DNA from: a phage
DNA: 45,326 nucleotides
Sequence record: PX405663.1
Reading direction: 5' to 3' (one strand)
This document shows positions 34,689 through 40,769 of this stretch, one piece after another. The notes beneath the pieces were generated by a model. The model made no database searches. It was given only the letters and a program-made list of their open reading frames with translations, and had not been told where the DNA came from. The position numbers and the translations under genes are program-made. How positions within the stretch are numbered: the stretch's first letter is position 1; each line of letters opens with the position of its first letter.

Positions 34689-34717
34689 AAAAGAAAGGGC
34701 CATACGGCCCTTTCTTA
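34688..34717. terminator. bidirectional rho-independent terminator between the convergent arms
   Basis: A-rich run, GGGCCATACGGCCC hairpin, T-rich run; flanked by stop codons of both convergent genes. Confidence 0.65.
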
Positions 34718-35290
34718 ATTTGAGTTTTCCCAGTCCATTTTGCGCCGCACCAGAGGGCTTTCGTAGTATTCCTTACCTTCAACCTCCACTAAAGGCCAAT
34801 CGTTCACGATCACGTATGGCTCTGCTATATCCTCAATCACACCGTGCGCGCTATGCTGCCCGAACGACACACCGACCAGAATAACACCGGCAACTCGACG
34901 GGTCAGATACTCGCGAGCGCAACGTGCCTCGACCAGTCCTCGACGGATGCCGCTGGTGGCTTTGACCTCATAGGTCCAGACGGCATCAATCATATGTTCG
35001 CGGAAGTCAGGGCCGGACTTAACCTTGCGCTTGCCGACCATGATGATATCGCCGCGGTCAATGGTGTTGGCGCTAAACAGGCCGGTACGCATAAGTAAGC
35101 CTTGCGGTATGCAACTACGCCCGCCCGCCTGCCCCTCAAGGTACATGCCCGCAAACATCTCGCCCAGCACACCGACAAGACGGCTTTGCTTGCACGCGTC
35201 AGACTTTAGGCGCCATTGGTCAAACTCGATGCTTGCGATCATTGCCGCCAGGTGGAATTGTTTACCGGTTATTTCATATTCGCCGTACAT
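34715..35290 (-). CDS. hypothetical protein (191 aa), possible PD-(D/E)xK-like fold
   Basis: ORF track; GAGGA SD; weak D...E.K pattern only. Confidence 0.5.
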   Translation of the reverse strand: MYGEYEITGKQFHLAAMIASIEFDQWRLKSDACKQSRLVGVLGEMFAGMYLEGQAGGRSCIPQGLLMRTGLFSANTIDRGDIIMVGKRKVKSGPDFREHMIDAVWTYEVKATSGIRRGLVEARCAREYLTRRVAGVILVGVSFGQHSAHGVIEDIAEPYVIVNDWPLVEVEGKEYYESPLVRRKMDWENSN

Positions 35291-35332
35291 TGTGTGGTCC
35301 TCATTGATGCGGGCCGAAGCCCGCGATTAGAG

Positions 35333-35827
35333 TTATTTAAGTGCGCCAGTCACCAGTGTTTTTTCCATGTTGCGGAAGTCTTCCGGCGTCATGAGGATTT
35401 TGGATCCGTCTTCGCCGGTGAGCACGACCATAGGCTGGAATTCTTGACCCGCAATGCCGAACTTAGCAGCATTGAAATTAGTGGCTTTGATCTTGGTAGG
35501 CCAGTCTTTTAGGCTGTCGTATTGCGCTGCCGTTGTATCGACCTGGATCTCGTCCTGCACGGTCATATAAGACTCGCCCAGCAGGGCGGCATACGCCACC
35601 AGATCCACGATATTATCTTCCTGGTGCTTACGGTGCTGGCGCACCAGCTTCAGGCAGATCAGGAAGGTCCAGGCTTCTTGCTCGGTCAGGTCGCGACCGG
35701 TAAGCGCGTTAAACACGGCGGCGATCTGTTTAGCGCTGCGTTCTTCTTTCGCGTTGTCATAGCCGTTTTCTTTCCCGCGCTGTTCCATAGTGGTGGCGGC
35801 GTTTTTGCAGTATTCGTATGCTTTCAT
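35333..35827 (-). CDS. hypothetical protein (about 164 aa)
   Basis: Track ORF 35333..35953 trimmed to MKAYEY with AAGGA SD. Confidence 0.5.
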   Translation of the reverse strand: MKAYEYCKNAATTMEQRGKENGYDNAKEERSAKQIAAVFNALTGRDLTEQEAWTFLICLKLVRQHRKHQEDNIVDLVAYAALLGESYMTVQDEIQVDTTAAQYDSLKDWPTKIKATNFNAAKFGIAGQEFQPMVVLTGEDGSKILMTPEDFRNMEKTLVTGALK

Positions 35828-35837
35828 TATGTTTTCC

Positions 35838-35905
35838 TTTTTAGTGGGGGCGGTATTGCCCCCGACGTGATTAAGATACTGCAACCAACCTATTGGTTGC
35901 AAGTG
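35838..35905 (-). promoter_or_regulatory. inverted pair of TGCAACCAA/TTGGTTGCA motifs followed by a leader hairpin
   Basis: Plus strand 35880..35902 TGCAACCAACCTATTGGTTGCA; GGGGGCGGTATTGCCCCC hairpin between motif and SD. Confidence 0.45.
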
Positions 35906-36360
35906 AATTTTGCAACGTTTATCGCATAAATTTTCGGGACCAGATCGCCGCACGCCCGACGAATTGCCGCGATGTTCTTCGGACAGTCTTCAATGATGAC
36001 CAGTTCCGACACGTCCGCGTAACAGACCATTTTGAACACGGCGCACGCCTTAAACTCTGGTGGCGGGGTGTCGTCCAGCATGTGGCGCATAAACAACCGG
36101 CCTACAGGGAATACCTCCAATTGCTCGGCGGTAGTGTCCCAACATTCTCTCTGCCGGTTGGTCAGATACGCGATCTCGAAGCCTTGATCTCTGTACATGC
36201 GCAGCAGCGGCAGCATATCCATGTTCAGGTCTTCGCGTACGTGCGCTTTGTGCCACTTCGCCCAAAATGTTGATTTGGTTTTTATACCCGGAACCAGGTC
36301 GGCACGCGCATCGCTTGAACCGTTAATAACGCCATCCAGATCGCAAATCAGTAATTTCAT
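35890..36360 (-). CDS. HAD-superfamily phosphatase-like protein
   Basis: 156 aa; N-terminal LICDLDGVI matches HAD motif I; GAGGAG SD. Confidence 0.5.
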   Translation of the reverse strand: MKLLICDLDGVINGSSDARADLVPGIKTKSTFWAKWHKAHVREDLNMDMLPLLRMYRDQGFEIAYLTNRQRECWDTTAEQLEVFPVGRLFMRHMLDDTPPPEFKACAVFKMVCYADVSELVIIEDCPKNIAAIRRACGDLVPKIYAINVAKFTCNQ

Positions 36361-36581
36361 TTCAACTCCTCGATCAGATTCATACGAACAACACGGGCAG
36401 AAAAAGCGTCACACACAAGATGACAACGGGCGGACATTACAAGCCAGCCGGTAAGGTCCATGCCGAGCAATTGCTCTGGGCGACTGACCCGCTGCACTTT
36501 GTTCTCCCTCGGGTTAATTTGGTAGCGTTTAACGATTTCGTCCACGACGCGCATACTGCGGTCAACGACTAAGATATTCAT
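36357..36581 (-). CDS. small hypothetical protein
   Basis: Track ORF 36357..36590 (GTG) or the ATG at 36581. Confidence 0.3.
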   Translation of the reverse strand: MNILVVDRSMRVVDEIVKRYQINPRENKVQRVSRPEQLLGMDLTGWLVMSARCHLVCDAFSARVVRMNLIEELK

Positions 36582-37047
36582 GTAGCTCACTCTCGCTCAT
36601 TATTTCAATTTGTGCGCTGCCGCTGGGCGGCGCTTCGTCAAATATTATTAATTGCTGGCACTTGTTATTGCTCGGACCGACTTCGCCGGTGACGGCGTGG
36701 ATGAATCTAATCCGCCAGTCCAGAAGAATTATCATATTGGCGGTCTTCCGGGCCAGCCTCGCCCACTTCGTCGACGTGTCCTGATTCAGCAGCATGACAG
36801 TCCGGCGTCCGTGCGCTGCGCACTCGACCCACGGCAGCGGATCGGAATATGGCGGGTTGCACCATTTCCACCCTTTCAACTCGGACCAGTCAGCATCAAG
36901 CGCGCTGTGTTCCGCCGTGAAGTATCGCGGTAGCAGGTGATTGGCATCGCTTGCCGCCATATCGTAACGGAATCGGTATTTCCGGCGCAGCGGTTTAAAT
37001 AAAGCTGGCGGCGTGCGCCAGCTATCTTTCTGCTCACTCTTCGTCAT
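36562..37047 (-). CDS. DNA N6-adenine methyltransferase (phage Dam-like)
   Basis: Track ORF 36562..37164 trimmed to avoid a 130-nt overlap; WRTPPALF and WCNPPYS (NPPY catalytic motif). Confidence 0.65.
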   Translation of the reverse strand: MTKSEQKDSWRTPPALFKPLRRKYRFRYDMAASDANHLLPRYFTAEHSALDADWSELKGWKWCNPPYSDPLPWVECAAHGRRTVMLLNQDTSTKWARLARKTANMIILLDWRIRFIHAVTGEVGPSNNKCQQLIIFDEAPPSGSAQIEIMSESELHEYLSR

Positions 37048-37492
37048 TCTGCGGGTCCAGTGCGTACAGGGCCGTTTTCTTGTCTCGGGTAAGTACGCGC
37101 TGGATCCGCGCCATCTCATCCTTGCCAAGAGGTCGGCTATCGGAATAGTAGCTGCCGTTCGCACGCCACGCTATCAGCACCAGGTCTTTCCTGTCGATCT
37201 TAGACTGGCGGCCCTTCGGTCGCACGTACTCCTCGGCGCGTTTACAATGCTCGCGCAGACCTTCGGCAGTGATGCGGTTTAGCGCCACGCTGGTGGTGTA
37301 TCCTGTGCGCTGCATAATCCCCATCAATTCGAAAAGCAGTTCGAAGCGCTCCTCTAACTCCATGCGGCGCTTTTCTTCCGTTTCATAGCTTGACAGGTAG
37401 GTATCTGCCAGCGCGCTGACGCGTTCTGCCTGCTCGCGGGCTTTAAGGCATTGCGCGGACCAGTAATCTTTTTCTTCTTGTAAAATTTTCAT
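37034..37492 (-). CDS. hypothetical coiled-coil protein (152 aa)
   Basis: ORF track; GGAG SD. Confidence 0.5.
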   Translation of the reverse strand: MKILQEEKDYWSAQCLKAREQAERVSALADTYLSSYETEEKRRMELEERFELLFELMGIMQRTGYTTSVALNRITAEGLREHCKRAEEYVRPKGRQSKIDRKDLVLIAWRANGSYYSDSRPLGKDEMARIQRVLTRDKKTALYALDPQNDEE

Positions 37493-37501
37493 CGTGTTGT
37501 C

Positions 37502-37580
37502 TCCAGGTATTAAAAAGGGCGTCCAAACCGGACACCCTCAATATAATGCAACCAATACGATTATGCAACCAATTTACGCA
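37502..37580 (-). promoter_or_regulatory. tandem TATTGGTTGCA motifs with TATATT, followed by leader hairpin plus T-run
   Basis: Minus strand reads AAATTGGTTGCATAATCGTATTGGTTGCATTATATTGAG then GGGTGTCCGGTTTGGACGCCC TTTTT then SD and ATG. Confidence 0.5.
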
Positions 37581-37897
37581 TAAAAGTTAGGGTCGCGCGC
37601 AACGTCCACCAAATAAAGATTGCTGATCCGGTTGCCGTAATGGCCTGGCGTGCGCTGACGGCACACAACGGCGAAGCCTGGGGGGATTGTATTGCCGGTC
37701 GCGATAATCCACGCCACGCGCGCGCCAGACAGCGTCTTGCCGTTGCATTCGATACGAGTACCGCCATCGGCAGTATTGAGGTTGCCAATCTTGCAGCCGG
37801 TTGACTTAAGGCGGATAACGCCGGTCTTGCTGTCGTAGGAAAAAAGCTGATTGGTCATTGCCACTGAAAAGTCGATGGCGTCGAATGCAGTATTCAT
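37574..37897 (-). CDS. HNH endonuclease-like protein (possibly degenerate)
   Basis: 107 aa; ARVAWIIATG...GHYGNRISNL resembles phage HNH homing-endonuclease layout but canonical His residues are not all evident. Confidence 0.35.
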   Translation of the reverse strand: MNTAFDAIDFSVAMTNQLFSYDSKTGVIRLKSTGCKIGNLNTADGGTRIECNGKTLSGARVAWIIATGNTIPPGFAVVCRQRTPGHYGNRISNLYLVDVARDPNFYA

Positions 37898-38589
37898 TTT
37901 AAATTTTCCTCGTTAACCGCTATTGCGAAGCCGCGCGGGGTGAGCGACCTGATTAATTTGGTGCGGGCAGATTTGCCTCCGAGGCGACTATACTGCTTCG
38001 AGTACCCTTTTTCAACGAAAACAGGTTTCTTCTCTGGCATACGGAAGCCGTTGCCGGTCCATAAGCAGGTCAGCTTCGGATATGAATCGCGGGCGTTGAT
38101 GTATTCCGGGAATAACGGGTGCACGTCATCCTCCGGCAGATATCCGCCATACTCCCACGGATCAAACGAGTGGTCCGGCTTACGCCATTGAGTTGATAGC
38201 ACGCTGCGCGGATTCTCAATCATATATGGCACTTCGAAGAAGTCACCCAGGTAAGCGGCGATCTTCGCGGTGCGCACCGCCTTAAGCTGAAAGGCTGGGT
38301 CTTTTGCACGCTTGCGCGGGAAAGCTGGCGCACCGCTCACCGCCAGATCCGTACACGGTGGGAACGCATAAATGATATCCGGCGTACCGAAATCGCCATT
38401 CATCGCGCGGTCTACAAAGTCCAGATCAATAAACTCATTGCGATATCGGATCCCGCGACCATAAATCCGGTAGTCCAGGTAAGACCCGTGATCAGCTTCG
38501 GAGTAGTTGAAGCAATAACACTTATGCCCCATCTCGGCAGCACGCTCAATCATCAAGCCGCTGCCGTCAAACAATGACCAGATAATCAT
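37894..38589 (-). CDS. divergent C5-cytosine methyltransferase-like protein (231 aa)
   Basis: SLFDGSG (motif I-like FxGxG), FPPCTD (motif IV-like Pro-Cys), ENP (motif VI-like); shorter than typical; ATGA overlap with helicase gene. Confidence 0.4.
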   Translation of the reverse strand: MIIWSLFDGSGLMIERAAEMGHKCYCFNYSEADHGSYLDYRIYGRGIRYRNEFIDLDFVDRAMNGDFGTPDIIYAFPPCTDLAVSGAPAFPRKRAKDPAFQLKAVRTAKIAAYLGDFFEVPYMIENPRSVLSTQWRKPDHSFDPWEYGGYLPEDDVHPLFPEYINARDSYPKLTCLWTGNGFRMPEKKPVFVEKGYSKQYSRLGGKSARTKLIRSLTPRGFAIAVNEENLK

Positions 38590-40010
38590 TTGCGCGCCTT
38601 TTTAGCTTTCATGTATTCCATCAAGTCGTCCTGAATATCGCGCTTACTGTCGCGACGCTCGGCGACCAGTTCGTCAAGTGTGCCGCGTGCCTGGATAATA
38701 TAGACGAATACAGGACGGGGGTGTCCGGCTTGCATCTGGCGAACCGGCCCGATACGCTCCACGATCTGCGCAAAGTGCTCATAGTTCCAGGTGTCTGAGA
38801 AGATAGCAAGGTGGTGTCCGCCATCCTGCAAGTTAAGGCCGTGACCCGCCGATGCCGGGTGTGCGAACATGATGGGGATCTCGCCCCTGTTCCACGCTTC
38901 CATATCCTTATTGCCTTGCTTTCCCTTACCCATAGCGACGCCGTGTGGGAATTTCTTCTTAAGACGTGCCAAGTCATGCTTGTACTGGTATGCGACGAGC
39001 AACGGTGCGCCGTTCAACTCCTCCACGATACTTTCCAGCGCGTCCAGCTTAGCGTCGTGAATTTTCACCCATTCGTCGGTCCGTTCGCCGTCTTCGTCGA
39101 CCTTATACACGGCCCCGGAAGCAAGCTGAAGGCACTTAATGGTCTTCGACGCAGCGTTCGCCGCCTCCACAGTTCCGCTTTCCAGTTCGGCAAATAGCTC
39201 CGCTTCGAACTGGTCATAAATCTTGCGGGCTTTCCTCGGCAGGTCCACAACAACCGGCGTATAGATTGGTTTATCACATCCGAAGTATTCAGCCGCGTCA
39301 ACGGTGAGCGATACGTCAGACAGGCGTTGTTGTATTTCTTTCTCGGAGTTCTTGAGCGGGGCGTGTTGCATCGTGAAGCTGCCAGGCTTAACAGGCTTGC
39401 TAATAAACCAGCGGTCCGTAAATGCCTTATAGCTACTGCCGAGGCGTTCGCCACCATCGACAAACCACGTCTGACCCCACAGGTCTTTCAGTCCGTTTGG
39501 CGCGGGTGTGCCTGTAAGGTTAATCCAGCGCTTGACGCGCTTATGTGCGATCGCCGCCAGGGCGCGGGCGCGCTTACTGCCCTGCTTGCTGCGGTAGCCT
39601 TTCAGCTTAGTGGATTCATCGGCAACAACGACCGTAAAGGGCCACTCGTCGCCGCAATAGTCAACCAGCCACTCAACCACATCATAGTTAACACAAACCA
39701 CGTTAGCGTCGCTCTCAAGCGCAGCGATGCGGTCCTTCTCTGACCCGGTGCCGTCTACTACCAGCAGGGCGGGGAAGCGCCATTTCTCCTGCTCCGGGGG
39801 CCATGTACCGGACGCAACGCGCAGCGGGGCCAGCACCAGTACGCGGTCCTCCTGGTTGGACAGGATACCAGTCTGGAACATTTTATTCAGCGCCCACATA
39901 GTCGCGCCGGTTTTACCCGACCCCATTGTCGCCCATATATTGCATCGCTTATGCTTGAGGATGAACGCGGTTATCAACTTCTGATATTCGCGACGTCGGA
40001 AACGTGCCAT
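38586..40010 (-). CDS. SNF2/DEAD-like superfamily 2 helicase
   Basis: Track ORF 38586..40100 trimmed to MARFRR; Walker A GSGKTG, DEST Walker B-like, C-terminal helicase domain. Confidence 0.75.
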   Translation of the reverse strand: MARFRRREYQKLITAFILKHKRCNIWATMGSGKTGATMWALNKMFQTGILSNQEDRVLVLAPLRVASGTWPPEQEKWRFPALLVVDGTGSEKDRIAALESDANVVCVNYDVVEWLVDYCGDEWPFTVVVADESTKLKGYRSKQGSKRARALAAIAHKRVKRWINLTGTPAPNGLKDLWGQTWFVDGGERLGSSYKAFTDRWFISKPVKPGSFTMQHAPLKNSEKEIQQRLSDVSLTVDAAEYFGCDKPIYTPVVVDLPRKARKIYDQFEAELFAELESGTVEAANAASKTIKCLQLASGAVYKVDEDGERTDEWVKIHDAKLDALESIVEELNGAPLLVAYQYKHDLARLKKKFPHGVAMGKGKQGNKDMEAWNRGEIPIMFAHPASAGHGLNLQDGGHHLAIFSDTWNYEHFAQIVERIGPVRQMQAGHPRPVFVYIIQARGTLDELVAERRDSKRDIQDDLMEYMKAKKARK

Positions 40011-40244: not shown

Positions 40245-40270
40245 CTAAAAATGGCGGGCTTGTCCCGCCG
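40245..40270 (-). terminator. intra-operon hairpin plus T-run (minus strand) whose stem is GCGGGACAAGCCCGC
   Basis: Read on the minus strand: stem-loop followed by ATTTTT. Confidence 0.4.
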
Positions 40271-40276
40271 TATTAA

Positions 40277-40450
40277 TTATTTTTGCGCTGCGCGGTAGCG
40301 GCGCTGCCGTTCACGCTCTTTTTTATTGCGGCACGATTTGCACTCGGCACGATACCCATCGGGGCTGCGCGCAGTTTTGCCGGTGTATTTGTGGAACTGG
40401 GATAGCGGCTTGACGCAACCGCAATTACTACAACGTTTTTCTTCAACCAT
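40277..40450 (-). CDS. small zinc-ribbon protein (about 57 aa)
   Basis: Track ORF 40277..40522 trimmed to MVEEKRCSNCG with GAGGA SD; CxxC...CxxC. Confidence 0.4.
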   Translation of the reverse strand: MVEEKRCSNCGCVKPLSQFHKYTGKTARSPDGYRAECKSCRNKKERERQRRYRAAQK

Positions 40451-40490
40451 TTCTAAAATCCTCGATAGGGCTAACCTGCCAACTATACTG

Positions 40491-40769
40491 CTACGCGACC
40501 AATTCAGCAACCAATAAATCACAGTCGGCTATGTTGTCGATGACGCGAACGTCCGCACCGCGGCGGGCCATTCGCTCATGTTCTCGTACCTGGTGCGGCT
40601 TCGGTTTTCCTCTGGGGCGCTTCACTTCGACGAACACTATTTTGCCGTTGATTATAATAATCAGGTCGGGCGCACCTGCGCGCCCCTCCCATGCCAGTTT
40701 GCGGCAGAATCCGCCGACCTCTTTCACCCGTCGCATCAGGTGACTTTGAATCTTGCCTTCTGGTGTCAT
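40491..40769 (-). CDS. VRR-NUC domain nuclease
   Basis: 92 aa; APDLIIIINGKIVFVEVKRPRGKPKPHQVREHERM matches the VRR-NUC D..EVK..Q pattern. Confidence 0.65.
   Translation of the reverse strand: MTPEGKIQSHLMRRVKEVGGFCRKLAWEGRAGAPDLIIIINGKIVFVEVKRPRGKPKPHQVREHERMARRGADVRVIDNIADCDLLVAELVA

What the first reader, a model, noticed from the sequence alone, without database searches (positions are those of the whole stretch)
35890..38589. Clustered DNA-modification and nuclease-like genes: HAD phosphatase, Dam-type N6-adenine methyltransferase, HNH-like protein and an atypical short C5-methyltransferase-like protein
Four adjacent minus-strand genes carry nucleotide- or DNA-modifying signatures. The 231-aa protein has FxGxG, Pro-Cys and ENP motifs in the order expected for C5-cytosine methyltransferases but is much shorter and lacks a canonical PCQ motif, so it may be a divergent or repurposed pyrimidine C5-modifying enzyme. 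Together with the HAD phosphatase this could be a genome-protection or modification module.
Basis: partly seen in the sequence, partly recalled or inferred. Interest (0 to 1): 0.55.

Follow-up and report, generated by a model that had tools for sequence, protein, structure and literature searches.

The report
Known short phage cytosine methyltransferase cluster
The flagged genes are real, but they are the ordinary early-gene cluster of a well-sampled E. coli phage genus (Dhillonvirus), and the "atypical" 231-residue protein belongs to a widespread family of very short phage DNA cytosine-C5 methyltransferases, one of which has been shown experimentally to make 5-methylcytosine.

Summary
The window is a Dhillonvirus coliphage genome (96% identity to phage phiEco273; 161 related GenBank records). 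All four flagged minus-strand genes exist and are under purifying selection. Two hypervariable ORFs lie between them, so they are not strictly adjacent.

- **Dam.** A clear PF05869 N6-adenine methyltransferase.
- **HAD protein.** It most resembles the 3'-phosphatase domain of T4 polynucleotide kinase, not a base-modification enzyme.
- **HNH-like protein.** A degenerate, genus-restricted core gene.
- **Module idea.** No evidence links the HAD phosphatase to the methyltransferases.

Verdict: already known and low interest. The one open point is the target specificity of this enzyme family, which has almost no target-recognition domain (TRD).

The parts
37894..38589 (-). 231-aa short Dcm-like DNA cytosine-C5 methyltransferase (motif I F7-G11, catalytic P78-C79, E125-N126-P127; almost no target-recognition domain)
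37574..37897 (-). 107-aa degenerate HNH-like protein; start overlaps the dcm stop by 4 nt
   Evidence: phrog_99 E 4e-16 only; no Pfam hit; present in 158 Dhillonvirus records at >80% identity plus Edwardsiella eiAU phages at 40%; the canonical HNH His cannot be aligned; purifying selection, but a stop or frameshift in 2 of 16 loci.
37034..37492 (-). 152-aa hypervariable ORF of unknown function (the PHROG label 'DNA ligase' is unsupported)
   Evidence: phrog_10530; no Pfam or PDB hit; polymorphic at 0.43/0.38/0.78 of codon positions 1/2/3, with indels.
36562..37047 (-). 161-aa phage Dam-family N6-adenine DNA methyltransferase (NPPY at residue 64)
   Evidence: PF05869 E 2.8e-36, 125 bits against a cut-off of 28.1; TIGR01712 88.3 bits, below its cut-off of 97; intact in 16 of 16 loci; start chosen as in relatives.
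36357..36590 (-). 74/77-aa hypervariable ORF of unknown function
   Evidence: phrog_10685; highly polymorphic, with indels.
35890..36360 (-). 156-aa stand-alone HAD phosphatase, closest in fold to the T4 Pnkp 3'-phosphatase domain
38586..40010 (-). SNF2-family helicase immediately upstream; its stop overlaps the dcm start (context)
   Evidence: PF00176 E 4e-11 and phrog_62 E 1e-156.

Best explanation
The interval is part of the leftward early/replication operon of a Dhillonvirus coliphage. The operon carries two independent orphan DNA methyltransferases, plus neighbouring genes that are not mechanistically tied to them.

The 231-aa protein is an active S-adenosylmethionine-dependent DNA cytosine-C5 methyltransferase of the short phage 'Dcm-like' family. 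Cys79 of the PPC motif attacks C6 of a flipped-out cytosine, Glu125 of ENP protonates N3, and the FxGxG loop holds SAM. The product is 5-methylcytosine. The enzyme is essentially the catalytic domain alone. DNA recognition must come from the conserved insert at about residues 137-173 and the short 180-205 loop, possibly with dimerisation as in DNMT3.

The Dam protein makes N6-methyladenine. Both enzymes would modify replicating phage DNA to blunt some host restriction. The C5 enzyme can also expose the phage to defences such as retron Ec86/Eco1, which senses this methylation.

The HAD protein is a Pnkp-type 3'-phosphatase or nucleotidase working on nucleic-acid ends or nucleotides, not on bases. 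The HNH-like protein is a degenerate homing-endonuclease relative retained as a genus core gene.

Shown here: fold, motifs, homology, selection and distribution. Shown by others for a 54%-identical relative: 5mC formation and retron triggering. Inferred: activity of this copy, its target site, and the roles of the HAD and HNH-like proteins.
Against: The window's own protein misses the Pfam PF00145 and NCBIfam thresholds entirely. Profile comparison with E. coli Dcm aligns only motif IV (E 0.15). Motif VIII (QxRxR) is not recognisable, and K176 of the tested enzyme is Leu173 here. No Dhillonvirus enzyme has been assayed. BASEL found Dhillonvirus phages sensitive to type II restriction-modification systems, so any protective benefit is narrow. 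One Dhillonvirus (Shigella phage 1b) carries only a 186-nt remnant of the gene, so it is dispensable.
Confidence: 0.8

Rival explanations
1. The four genes form one integrated genome-protection or hypermodification module, in which the HAD phosphatase processes an intermediate of a base modification installed by the C5-MTase-like enzyme.
For: The genes lie in one operon with overlapping start and stop codons, and about 150 Dhillonvirus genomes keep all of them.
Against: KarlBarth (Bas17) lacks the HAD gene but keeps Dam, HNH-like and Dcm-like. Outside the genus the Dcm-like family (about 1,350 further records) and the HAD family (about 39 records, mostly 76-kb podoviruses) do not travel together. 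K42 Dcm alone is active in E. coli. The HAD fold is closest to the T4 Pnkp end-healing phosphatase. No kinase, glycosyl- or amino-transferase of known hypermodification pathways is annotated in relatives.
Confidence: 0.05
2. The 231-aa enzyme transfers something other than methyl, for example carboxymethyl from Cx-SAM (which E. coli makes with CmoA), as the phage enzyme CmoX does.
Confidence: 0.05
3. The 231-aa protein is catalytically dead or acts on RNA rather than DNA (a Dnmt2-like role), and is retained for another function.
Against: All catalytic residues are invariant under strong purifying selection. The orthologue methylates DNA in vivo. DNA methyltransferases outrank Dnmt2 in both fold searches.
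Confidence: 0.07

Closest known systems
Phage K42 / KarlJaspers (Bas06, Drexlerviridae) 236-aa 'Dcm-like C5 cytosine methyltransferase' (bioRxiv 10.1101/2023.08.16.553469; cited elsewhere under the title 'DNA methylation activates retron Ec86 filaments for antiviral defense'); PHROG family phrog_757
   Same: Same length class. 54% identity over the full length. Same catalytic Cys/Glu/Lys positions. Same family, present in 1,512 phage records. Already annotated under this name in BASEL Dhillonvirus genomes.
   Different: Different phage group (Dhillonvirus rather than Hanrivervirus). K176 of the tested enzyme is Leu here. This copy sits between an SNF2 helicase and an HNH-like gene. Untested biochemically.
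Canonical bacterial and eukaryotic DNA C5-cytosine methyltransferases (Pfam PF00145: M.HhaI, M.HaeIII, E. coli Dcm, DNMT3A/3B catalytic domain)
   Same: Class I SAM-MTase fold. Motifs I, IV (PC) and VI (EN-) in the same order. Best structural matches.
   Different: About 100 residues shorter than M.HhaI or M.HaeIII (324-328 residues in the PDB chains). Only about 20-40 residues where the target-recognition domain should be. PCT instead of PCQ and ENP instead of ENV. No QxRxR. Below Pfam threshold. Only motif IV aligns with E. coli Dcm, so 'Dcm-like' is a label, not orthology.
T4 polynucleotide kinase/phosphatase (Pnkp), 3'-phosphatase HAD domain
Phage Dam family PF05869 / TIGR01712
   Same: Full-length match with the NPPY catalytic motif.
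   Different: Below the TIGR01712 equivalog cut-off (88.3 against 97.05 bits). Target site not determined here.

Membership tests
DNA cytosine-C5 methyltransferase (PF00145-type) | Class I SAM-methyltransferase fold most similar to known C5 MTases | tested here: met
DNA cytosine-C5 methyltransferase (PF00145-type) | Motif I FxGxG (SAM binding), motif IV Pro-Cys nucleophile, motif VI Glu-Asn-x, in that order | tested here: met
   FDGSG 7-11, PPC 77-79, ENP 125-127; F7, G9, G11, P78, C79, E125 and N126 invariant in 32 relatives.
DNA cytosine-C5 methyltransferase (PF00145-type) | Motif VIII QxRxR and a target-recognition domain between motifs VIII and IX | tested here: not met
DNA cytosine-C5 methyltransferase (PF00145-type) | Score above the Pfam gathering threshold for PF00145 | tested here: not met
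   No hit for the window protein at E<=0.1. 20 of 32 relatives hit at E<=1, best 1.3e-6.
DNA cytosine-C5 methyltransferase (PF00145-type) | Formation of 5-methylcytosine in DNA | not testable with these tools
   Shown by LC-MS for the K42 orthologue of a protein 54% identical to this one.
Short phage Dcm-like family (phrog_757; K42/KarlJaspers Dcm) | Full-length homology and the same length class (about 225-245 aa) | tested here: met
   phrog_757 E 2e-82 over residues 1-229; 54% identity, E 1e-86, to bas06_0055; 2,886 relatives.
Short phage Dcm-like family (phrog_757; K42/KarlJaspers Dcm) | Residues mutated in the inactive K42 variant (C82, E128, K175, K176) conserved | tested here: inconclusive
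   C79, E125 and K172 align and are invariant. K176 aligns with Leu173 in this copy, though it is Lys in the family consensus.
Short phage Dcm-like family (phrog_757; K42/KarlJaspers Dcm) | CCWGG target specificity | not testable with these tools
   The K42 preprint assumed it by analogy and supported it only by mutating the msDNA site. CCWGG is not depleted here (139 sites, O/E 0.92). The polymorphism test was uninformative.
CmoX DNA cytosine C5-carboxymethyltransferase | SPPC motif, carboxylate-binding Arg (R350), and CmoA/CmoY neighbours | tested here: not met
   FPPC rather than SPPC. No CmoA- or CmoY-like gene annotated in Dhillonvirus relatives. The Arg equivalence could not be resolved without coordinates. 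Signature taken from PMC12783734.
HAD-superfamily phosphatase | Motif I DxDx(T/V), motif II S/T, motif III K, motif IV acidic pair | tested here: met
Polynucleotide kinase/phosphatase (T4 Pnkp) | P-loop 5'-kinase domain fused to the HAD 3'-phosphatase | tested here: not met
Phage Dam N6-adenine methyltransferase (PF05869) | Pfam gathering score and the (D/N)PPY catalytic motif | tested here: met
   125.2 bits against a cut-off of 28.1; NPPY at residue 64.
HNH endonuclease | Beta-beta-alpha-metal motif with the catalytic His (H-N-H/N) | tested here: not met
   No Pfam HNH-family hit. Only phrog_99, E 4e-16. The sequence reads ...VVCRQRTPGHYGNRISNL..., with no His where the conserved Asp-His of HNH_3-type enzymes would fall (the motif comparison is from my knowledge of the family).

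The most novel reading that the evidence does not exclude
The short phage C5 methyltransferases, this one included, do not copy host Dcm. With almost no target-recognition domain they may read a short or relaxed motif, or act on single-stranded or hairpin DNA. That would explain why host Dcm in dcm+ MG1655 neither heavily methylates nor triggers retron Ec86 msDNA while the phage enzyme does. They would then be the smallest known DNA C5 methyltransferases, with an unconventional recognition mode. A weaker add-on is that the conserved degenerate HNH-like neighbour, found next to C5 MTases in two phage genera, is a functional partner, for example in handling T:G mismatches.
Probability: 0.3. Interest if true: 0.5.

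Novelty: already known. Interest (0 to 1): 0.18.

Why it matters
It matters little as a discovery. Proteins 100% identical to this one are already in GenBank. The gene is already annotated as a Dcm-like or C5 cytosine methyltransferase in many Dhillonvirus records. A family member has been tested and linked to activation of retron Ec86/Eco1. The practical value is a corrected annotation of the cluster:
- the C5 MTase is genuine despite having no Pfam hit;
- the HAD protein is a Pnkp-type phosphatase rather than part of a modification pathway;
- the 'HNH' and 'DNA ligase' labels are weak.

It also shows that the target site and DNA-recognition mode of this minimal methyltransferase family remain undetermined.

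Tried and rejected
1. Sequence search of the 231-aa protein and of its family profile against PDB sequences. The results were only noise and a sub-threshold M.HaeIII match over motifs I-IV (E 0.64). Fold comparison was needed instead.
2. Profile-profile comparison with E. coli Dcm. Only motif IV aligned (E 0.15), so orthology to host Dcm is rejected.
3. Restriction-site statistics. CCWGG (O/E 0.92) and GATC (0.86) are neither avoided nor enriched, so they say nothing about specificity.
4. Search for a 5mC-deamination footprint. C-to-T polymorphism by sequence context was measured at synonymous third positions across 16 Dhillonvirus loci. Inner C of CCWGG was polymorphic at 7 of 24 sites against a 41.6% background. 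No -1/+1 context was elevated; the only nominally significant context was a deficit at CCA (0.26 against 0.42, p 0.003, uncorrected for 16 tests). The sites are saturated and few, so the test is inconclusive.
5. Literature search for methylomes of phages carrying this family found nothing usable.
6. PDB sequence searches for the Dam, 152-aa and HNH-like proteins gave no significant hits.
7. I checked whether the non-specific adenine methyltransferase paper covers PF05869. It does not mention it, so no claim about Dam specificity is taken from it.
8. The CmoX (carboxymethyl) reading was considered and ranked low.

Full report
**What the window is.** The 4.8-kb stretch around the finding matches 161 phage records. 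The best is Escherichia phage phiEco273 at 96.3% identity, and nearly all are Escherichia or Shigella phages of the genus Dhillonvirus. RefSeq and BASEL annotations of SSL-2009a and KarlBarth show the same gene order. The window is therefore a typical Dhillonvirus genome of about 45 kb and about 54% GC.

**Checking the observation.** The mechanical ORF list and start-site inspection give this order on the minus strand:
- SNF2 helicase, 38586-40010
- 231-aa ORF, 37894-38589
- 107-aa ORF, 37574-37897
- 152-aa ORF, 37034-37492
- Dam, 36562-37047 (the ATG start used in relatives)
- 74/77-aa ORF, 36357-36590
- HAD, 35890-36360
- a DUF6378 protein, 35333-35827

Several start and stop codons overlap (ATGA), so this is one compact leftward operon. 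The HAD protein has DLDGV and the Dam protein has NPPY.

Sixteen Dhillonvirus loci were aligned to the window. All four flagged genes show the third-codon-position excess expected of real, constrained genes: Dcm-like 0.11/0.09/0.62 polymorphic at positions 1/2/3, Dam 0.19/0.12/0.58, HNH-like 0.19/0.12/0.80, HAD 0.26/0.13/0.68. The two interleaved ORFs are hypervariable and rich in indels.

**The 231-aa protein.** It gets no hit in Pfam or NCBIfam, which explains why it looked atypical. It does match PHROG family phrog_757 ('DNA methyltransferase') at E 2e-82. It has 2,886 relatives in the large protein collection, almost all 225-250 aa long, and 823 cluster representatives at 50% identity.

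In an alignment of 32 relatives the invariant residues include:
- F7, G9, S10, G11;
- P77, P78, C79;
- E125, N126, P127;
- a long conserved stretch at 135-177;
- a C-terminal LGGK...TK.IRSL.PRG block.

Twenty of the 32 relatives reach Pfam PF00145 at E<=1 (best 1.3e-6), although the window's own copy does not.

The protein is essentially the catalytic domain alone. After the strand at 174-179 there is only a loop and three short helices, so the usual target-recognition domain is nearly absent. Against E. coli Dcm only motif IV aligns (hhalign E 0.15). 'Dcm-like' is a convenience label, not orthology.

**Already characterised.** BASEL annotates the orthologue in Dhillonvirus KarlBarth, and a 236-aa protein in the Drexlerviridae phage KarlJaspers, as 'Dcm-like C5 cytosine methyltransferase'. 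The window protein is 54% identical (E 1e-86) to the KarlJaspers protein over its whole length.

A preprint on retron Ec86 (10.1101/2023.08.16.553469) studied the 711-bp dcm of phage K42, whose genome is 95.4% identical to KarlJaspers. It reports the following:
- All retron escapers had lost the dcm gene or its expression.
- Expressing it alone was toxic only in the presence of the retron.
- LC-MS showed high 5mC in msDNA with the wild-type enzyme, but not with the C82A/E128A/K175A/K176A mutant.

Those residues align with C79, E125, K172 and L173 here. The family is in 1,512 phage records (Escherichia, Klebsiella, Salmonella and others), and 100%-identical proteins are already deposited.

One caveat from reading the preprint is that CCWGG specificity was assumed by analogy with host Dcm. 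It was supported only by mutating the CC of the msDNA site. The dcm+ host by itself gave low msDNA methylation. The real target and recognition mode of these TRD-poor enzymes therefore remain open.

**Attempts to get at specificity.**
- CCWGG (139 sites, O/E 0.92) and GATC (178 sites, O/E 0.86) are neither avoided nor enriched.
- A test for 5mC-driven C-to-T hypermutability at synonymous sites found nothing: inner C of CCWGG was polymorphic at 7 of 24 sites against a 41.6% background, and no dinucleotide context was elevated. Third positions are saturated and sites are few, so this is inconclusive.

**Dam.** The protein scores PF05869 at 125 bits against a cut-off of 28.1 and has NPPY. It falls below the TIGR01712 equivalog cut-off. 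It is intact in 16 of 16 loci. It is a routine phage orphan adenine methyltransferase, and its site was not determined here.

Three results argue against a role in base modification:
- KarlBarth lacks the gene but keeps Dam, HNH-like and Dcm-like.
- HAD homologues occur in only 192 phage records. Outside Dhillonvirus they are mostly in 76-kb Klebsiella and Pectobacterium phages, whereas the Dcm-like family is mainly in T1-like and rV5-like phages.
- K42 Dcm works alone.

The 'modification module' reading is therefore not supported. An end-healing or nucleotide phosphatase is the better inference.

**HNH-like protein.** Only phrog_99 matches it (E 4e-16), and no Pfam HNH family does. It is confined to Dhillonvirus (158 records at >80% identity), plus a 40%-identical 151-aa homologue in Edwardsiella eiAU phages. 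In eiAU it sits between the helicase and a 330-aa PF00145 methyltransferase followed by a PF05869 Dam.

The segment VVCRQRTPGHYGNRISNL keeps the Asn-containing half of an HNH_3-type motif but has no His where the catalytic Asp-His normally lies (the motif knowledge is mine). It is a core gene rather than a sporadic homing endonuclease. Even so, it carries a premature stop in one locus and a frameshift in SSL-2009a. Its function is unknown. A partnership with the methyltransferases is only a speculation prompted by the shared synteny.

**Dispensability and benefit.** Shigella phage 1b retains only a 186-nt remnant of dcm. BASEL reports Dhillonvirus phages as comparatively sensitive to type I and II restriction systems, and found no simple link between methyltransferase genes and restriction resistance in the related Drexlerviridae. 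Any protection is therefore narrow, and the enzyme can be a liability against retron Ec86/Eco1.

**Verdict.** The 231-aa protein is a genuine, very short C5 cytosine methyltransferase. It is a known, widely annotated and experimentally sampled family, and the proposed link to the HAD phosphatase does not hold. Novelty: already known. The one interesting residue is the undetermined specificity and recognition mechanism of a methyltransferase family that lacks a conventional target-recognition domain.

Noticed in passing
whole window (k-mer statistics): By maximal-order Markov expectation the most depleted 5-mers are GAGCC/GGCTC (9 observed against 42 expected, O/E 0.21), GAACC/GGTTC (0.37) and CTTGG/CCAAG (0.38). 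CTAG has O/E 0.25. The CTWGG and CTAG depletion resembles the E. coli very-short-patch-repair signature; the GAGCC depletion is unexplained.
   Followed up: no
window 36357-36590 and 37034-37492 (minus strand): The 77-aa and 152-aa ORFs between the conserved methyltransferase genes are hypervariable among 16 Dhillonvirus loci (0.50/0.41/0.81 and 0.43/0.38/0.78 polymorphic at codon positions 1/2/3, with many indels). The PHROG/RefSeq label 'DNA ligase' for the 152-aa protein has no support: no Pfam or PDB hit and no KxDG motif.
   Followed up: partly
L007 3489-3674 (Shigella phage 1b, OR420686.2): This Dhillonvirus keeps only a 186-nt remnant of the dcm-like gene between the helicase and the HNH-like gene, so the methyltransferase is dispensable, or the record has an assembly gap.
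   Followed up: partly
L006 2860-4882 (Edwardsiella phage eiAU-183): The synteny is the same but with a full-length enzyme: helicase, a 151-aa homologue of the HNH-like protein, a 330-aa PF00145 C5 methyltransferase, then a PF05869 Dam. The HNH-like gene thus accompanies C5 methyltransferases of two different architectures.
   Followed up: partly
L004 (KarlBarth, MZ501088) against window 34715-36360: KarlBarth lacks the HAD, DUF6378 and phrog_10558 genes altogether. The tail-fibre module abuts the small ORF upstream of Dam, so this is a variable accessory island at the end of the leftward operon.
   Followed up: partly
window 35333-35827 (minus strand): This DUF6378 protein (PF19905, E 1.4e-9) also matches PHROGs labelled 'phosphofructokinase', which is probably a propagated misannotation.
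   Followed up: no
window 40277-40522 (minus strand): This small Cys-rich ORF matches phrog_5558 'Lar-like restriction alleviation protein' (E 2e-18), but also the N-terminal zinc-finger parts of endonuclease VII/HNH PHROGs. It could be an anti-restriction gene near the methyltransferases, or only a zinc ribbon.
   Followed up: no
window 34691-34716, 37003-37023, 40251-40271: These are GC-rich hairpins. The first is an 11-bp-stem bidirectional terminator between the rightward tail-fibre gene and the leftward operon. The second lies inside the end of the 152-aa ORF, just upstream of the Dam start. The third lies between the helicase-proximal small ORFs.
   Followed up: no
L015 and L019 at the position of window 37574-37897: The HNH-like gene carries a premature stop in one IMG/VR Dhillonvirus contig (L015) and a 1-nt gap in contig L019. 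The C-terminus of the SSL-2009a protein (P0290) also diverges in a frameshift-like way. The gene is otherwise strongly conserved.
   Followed up: partly
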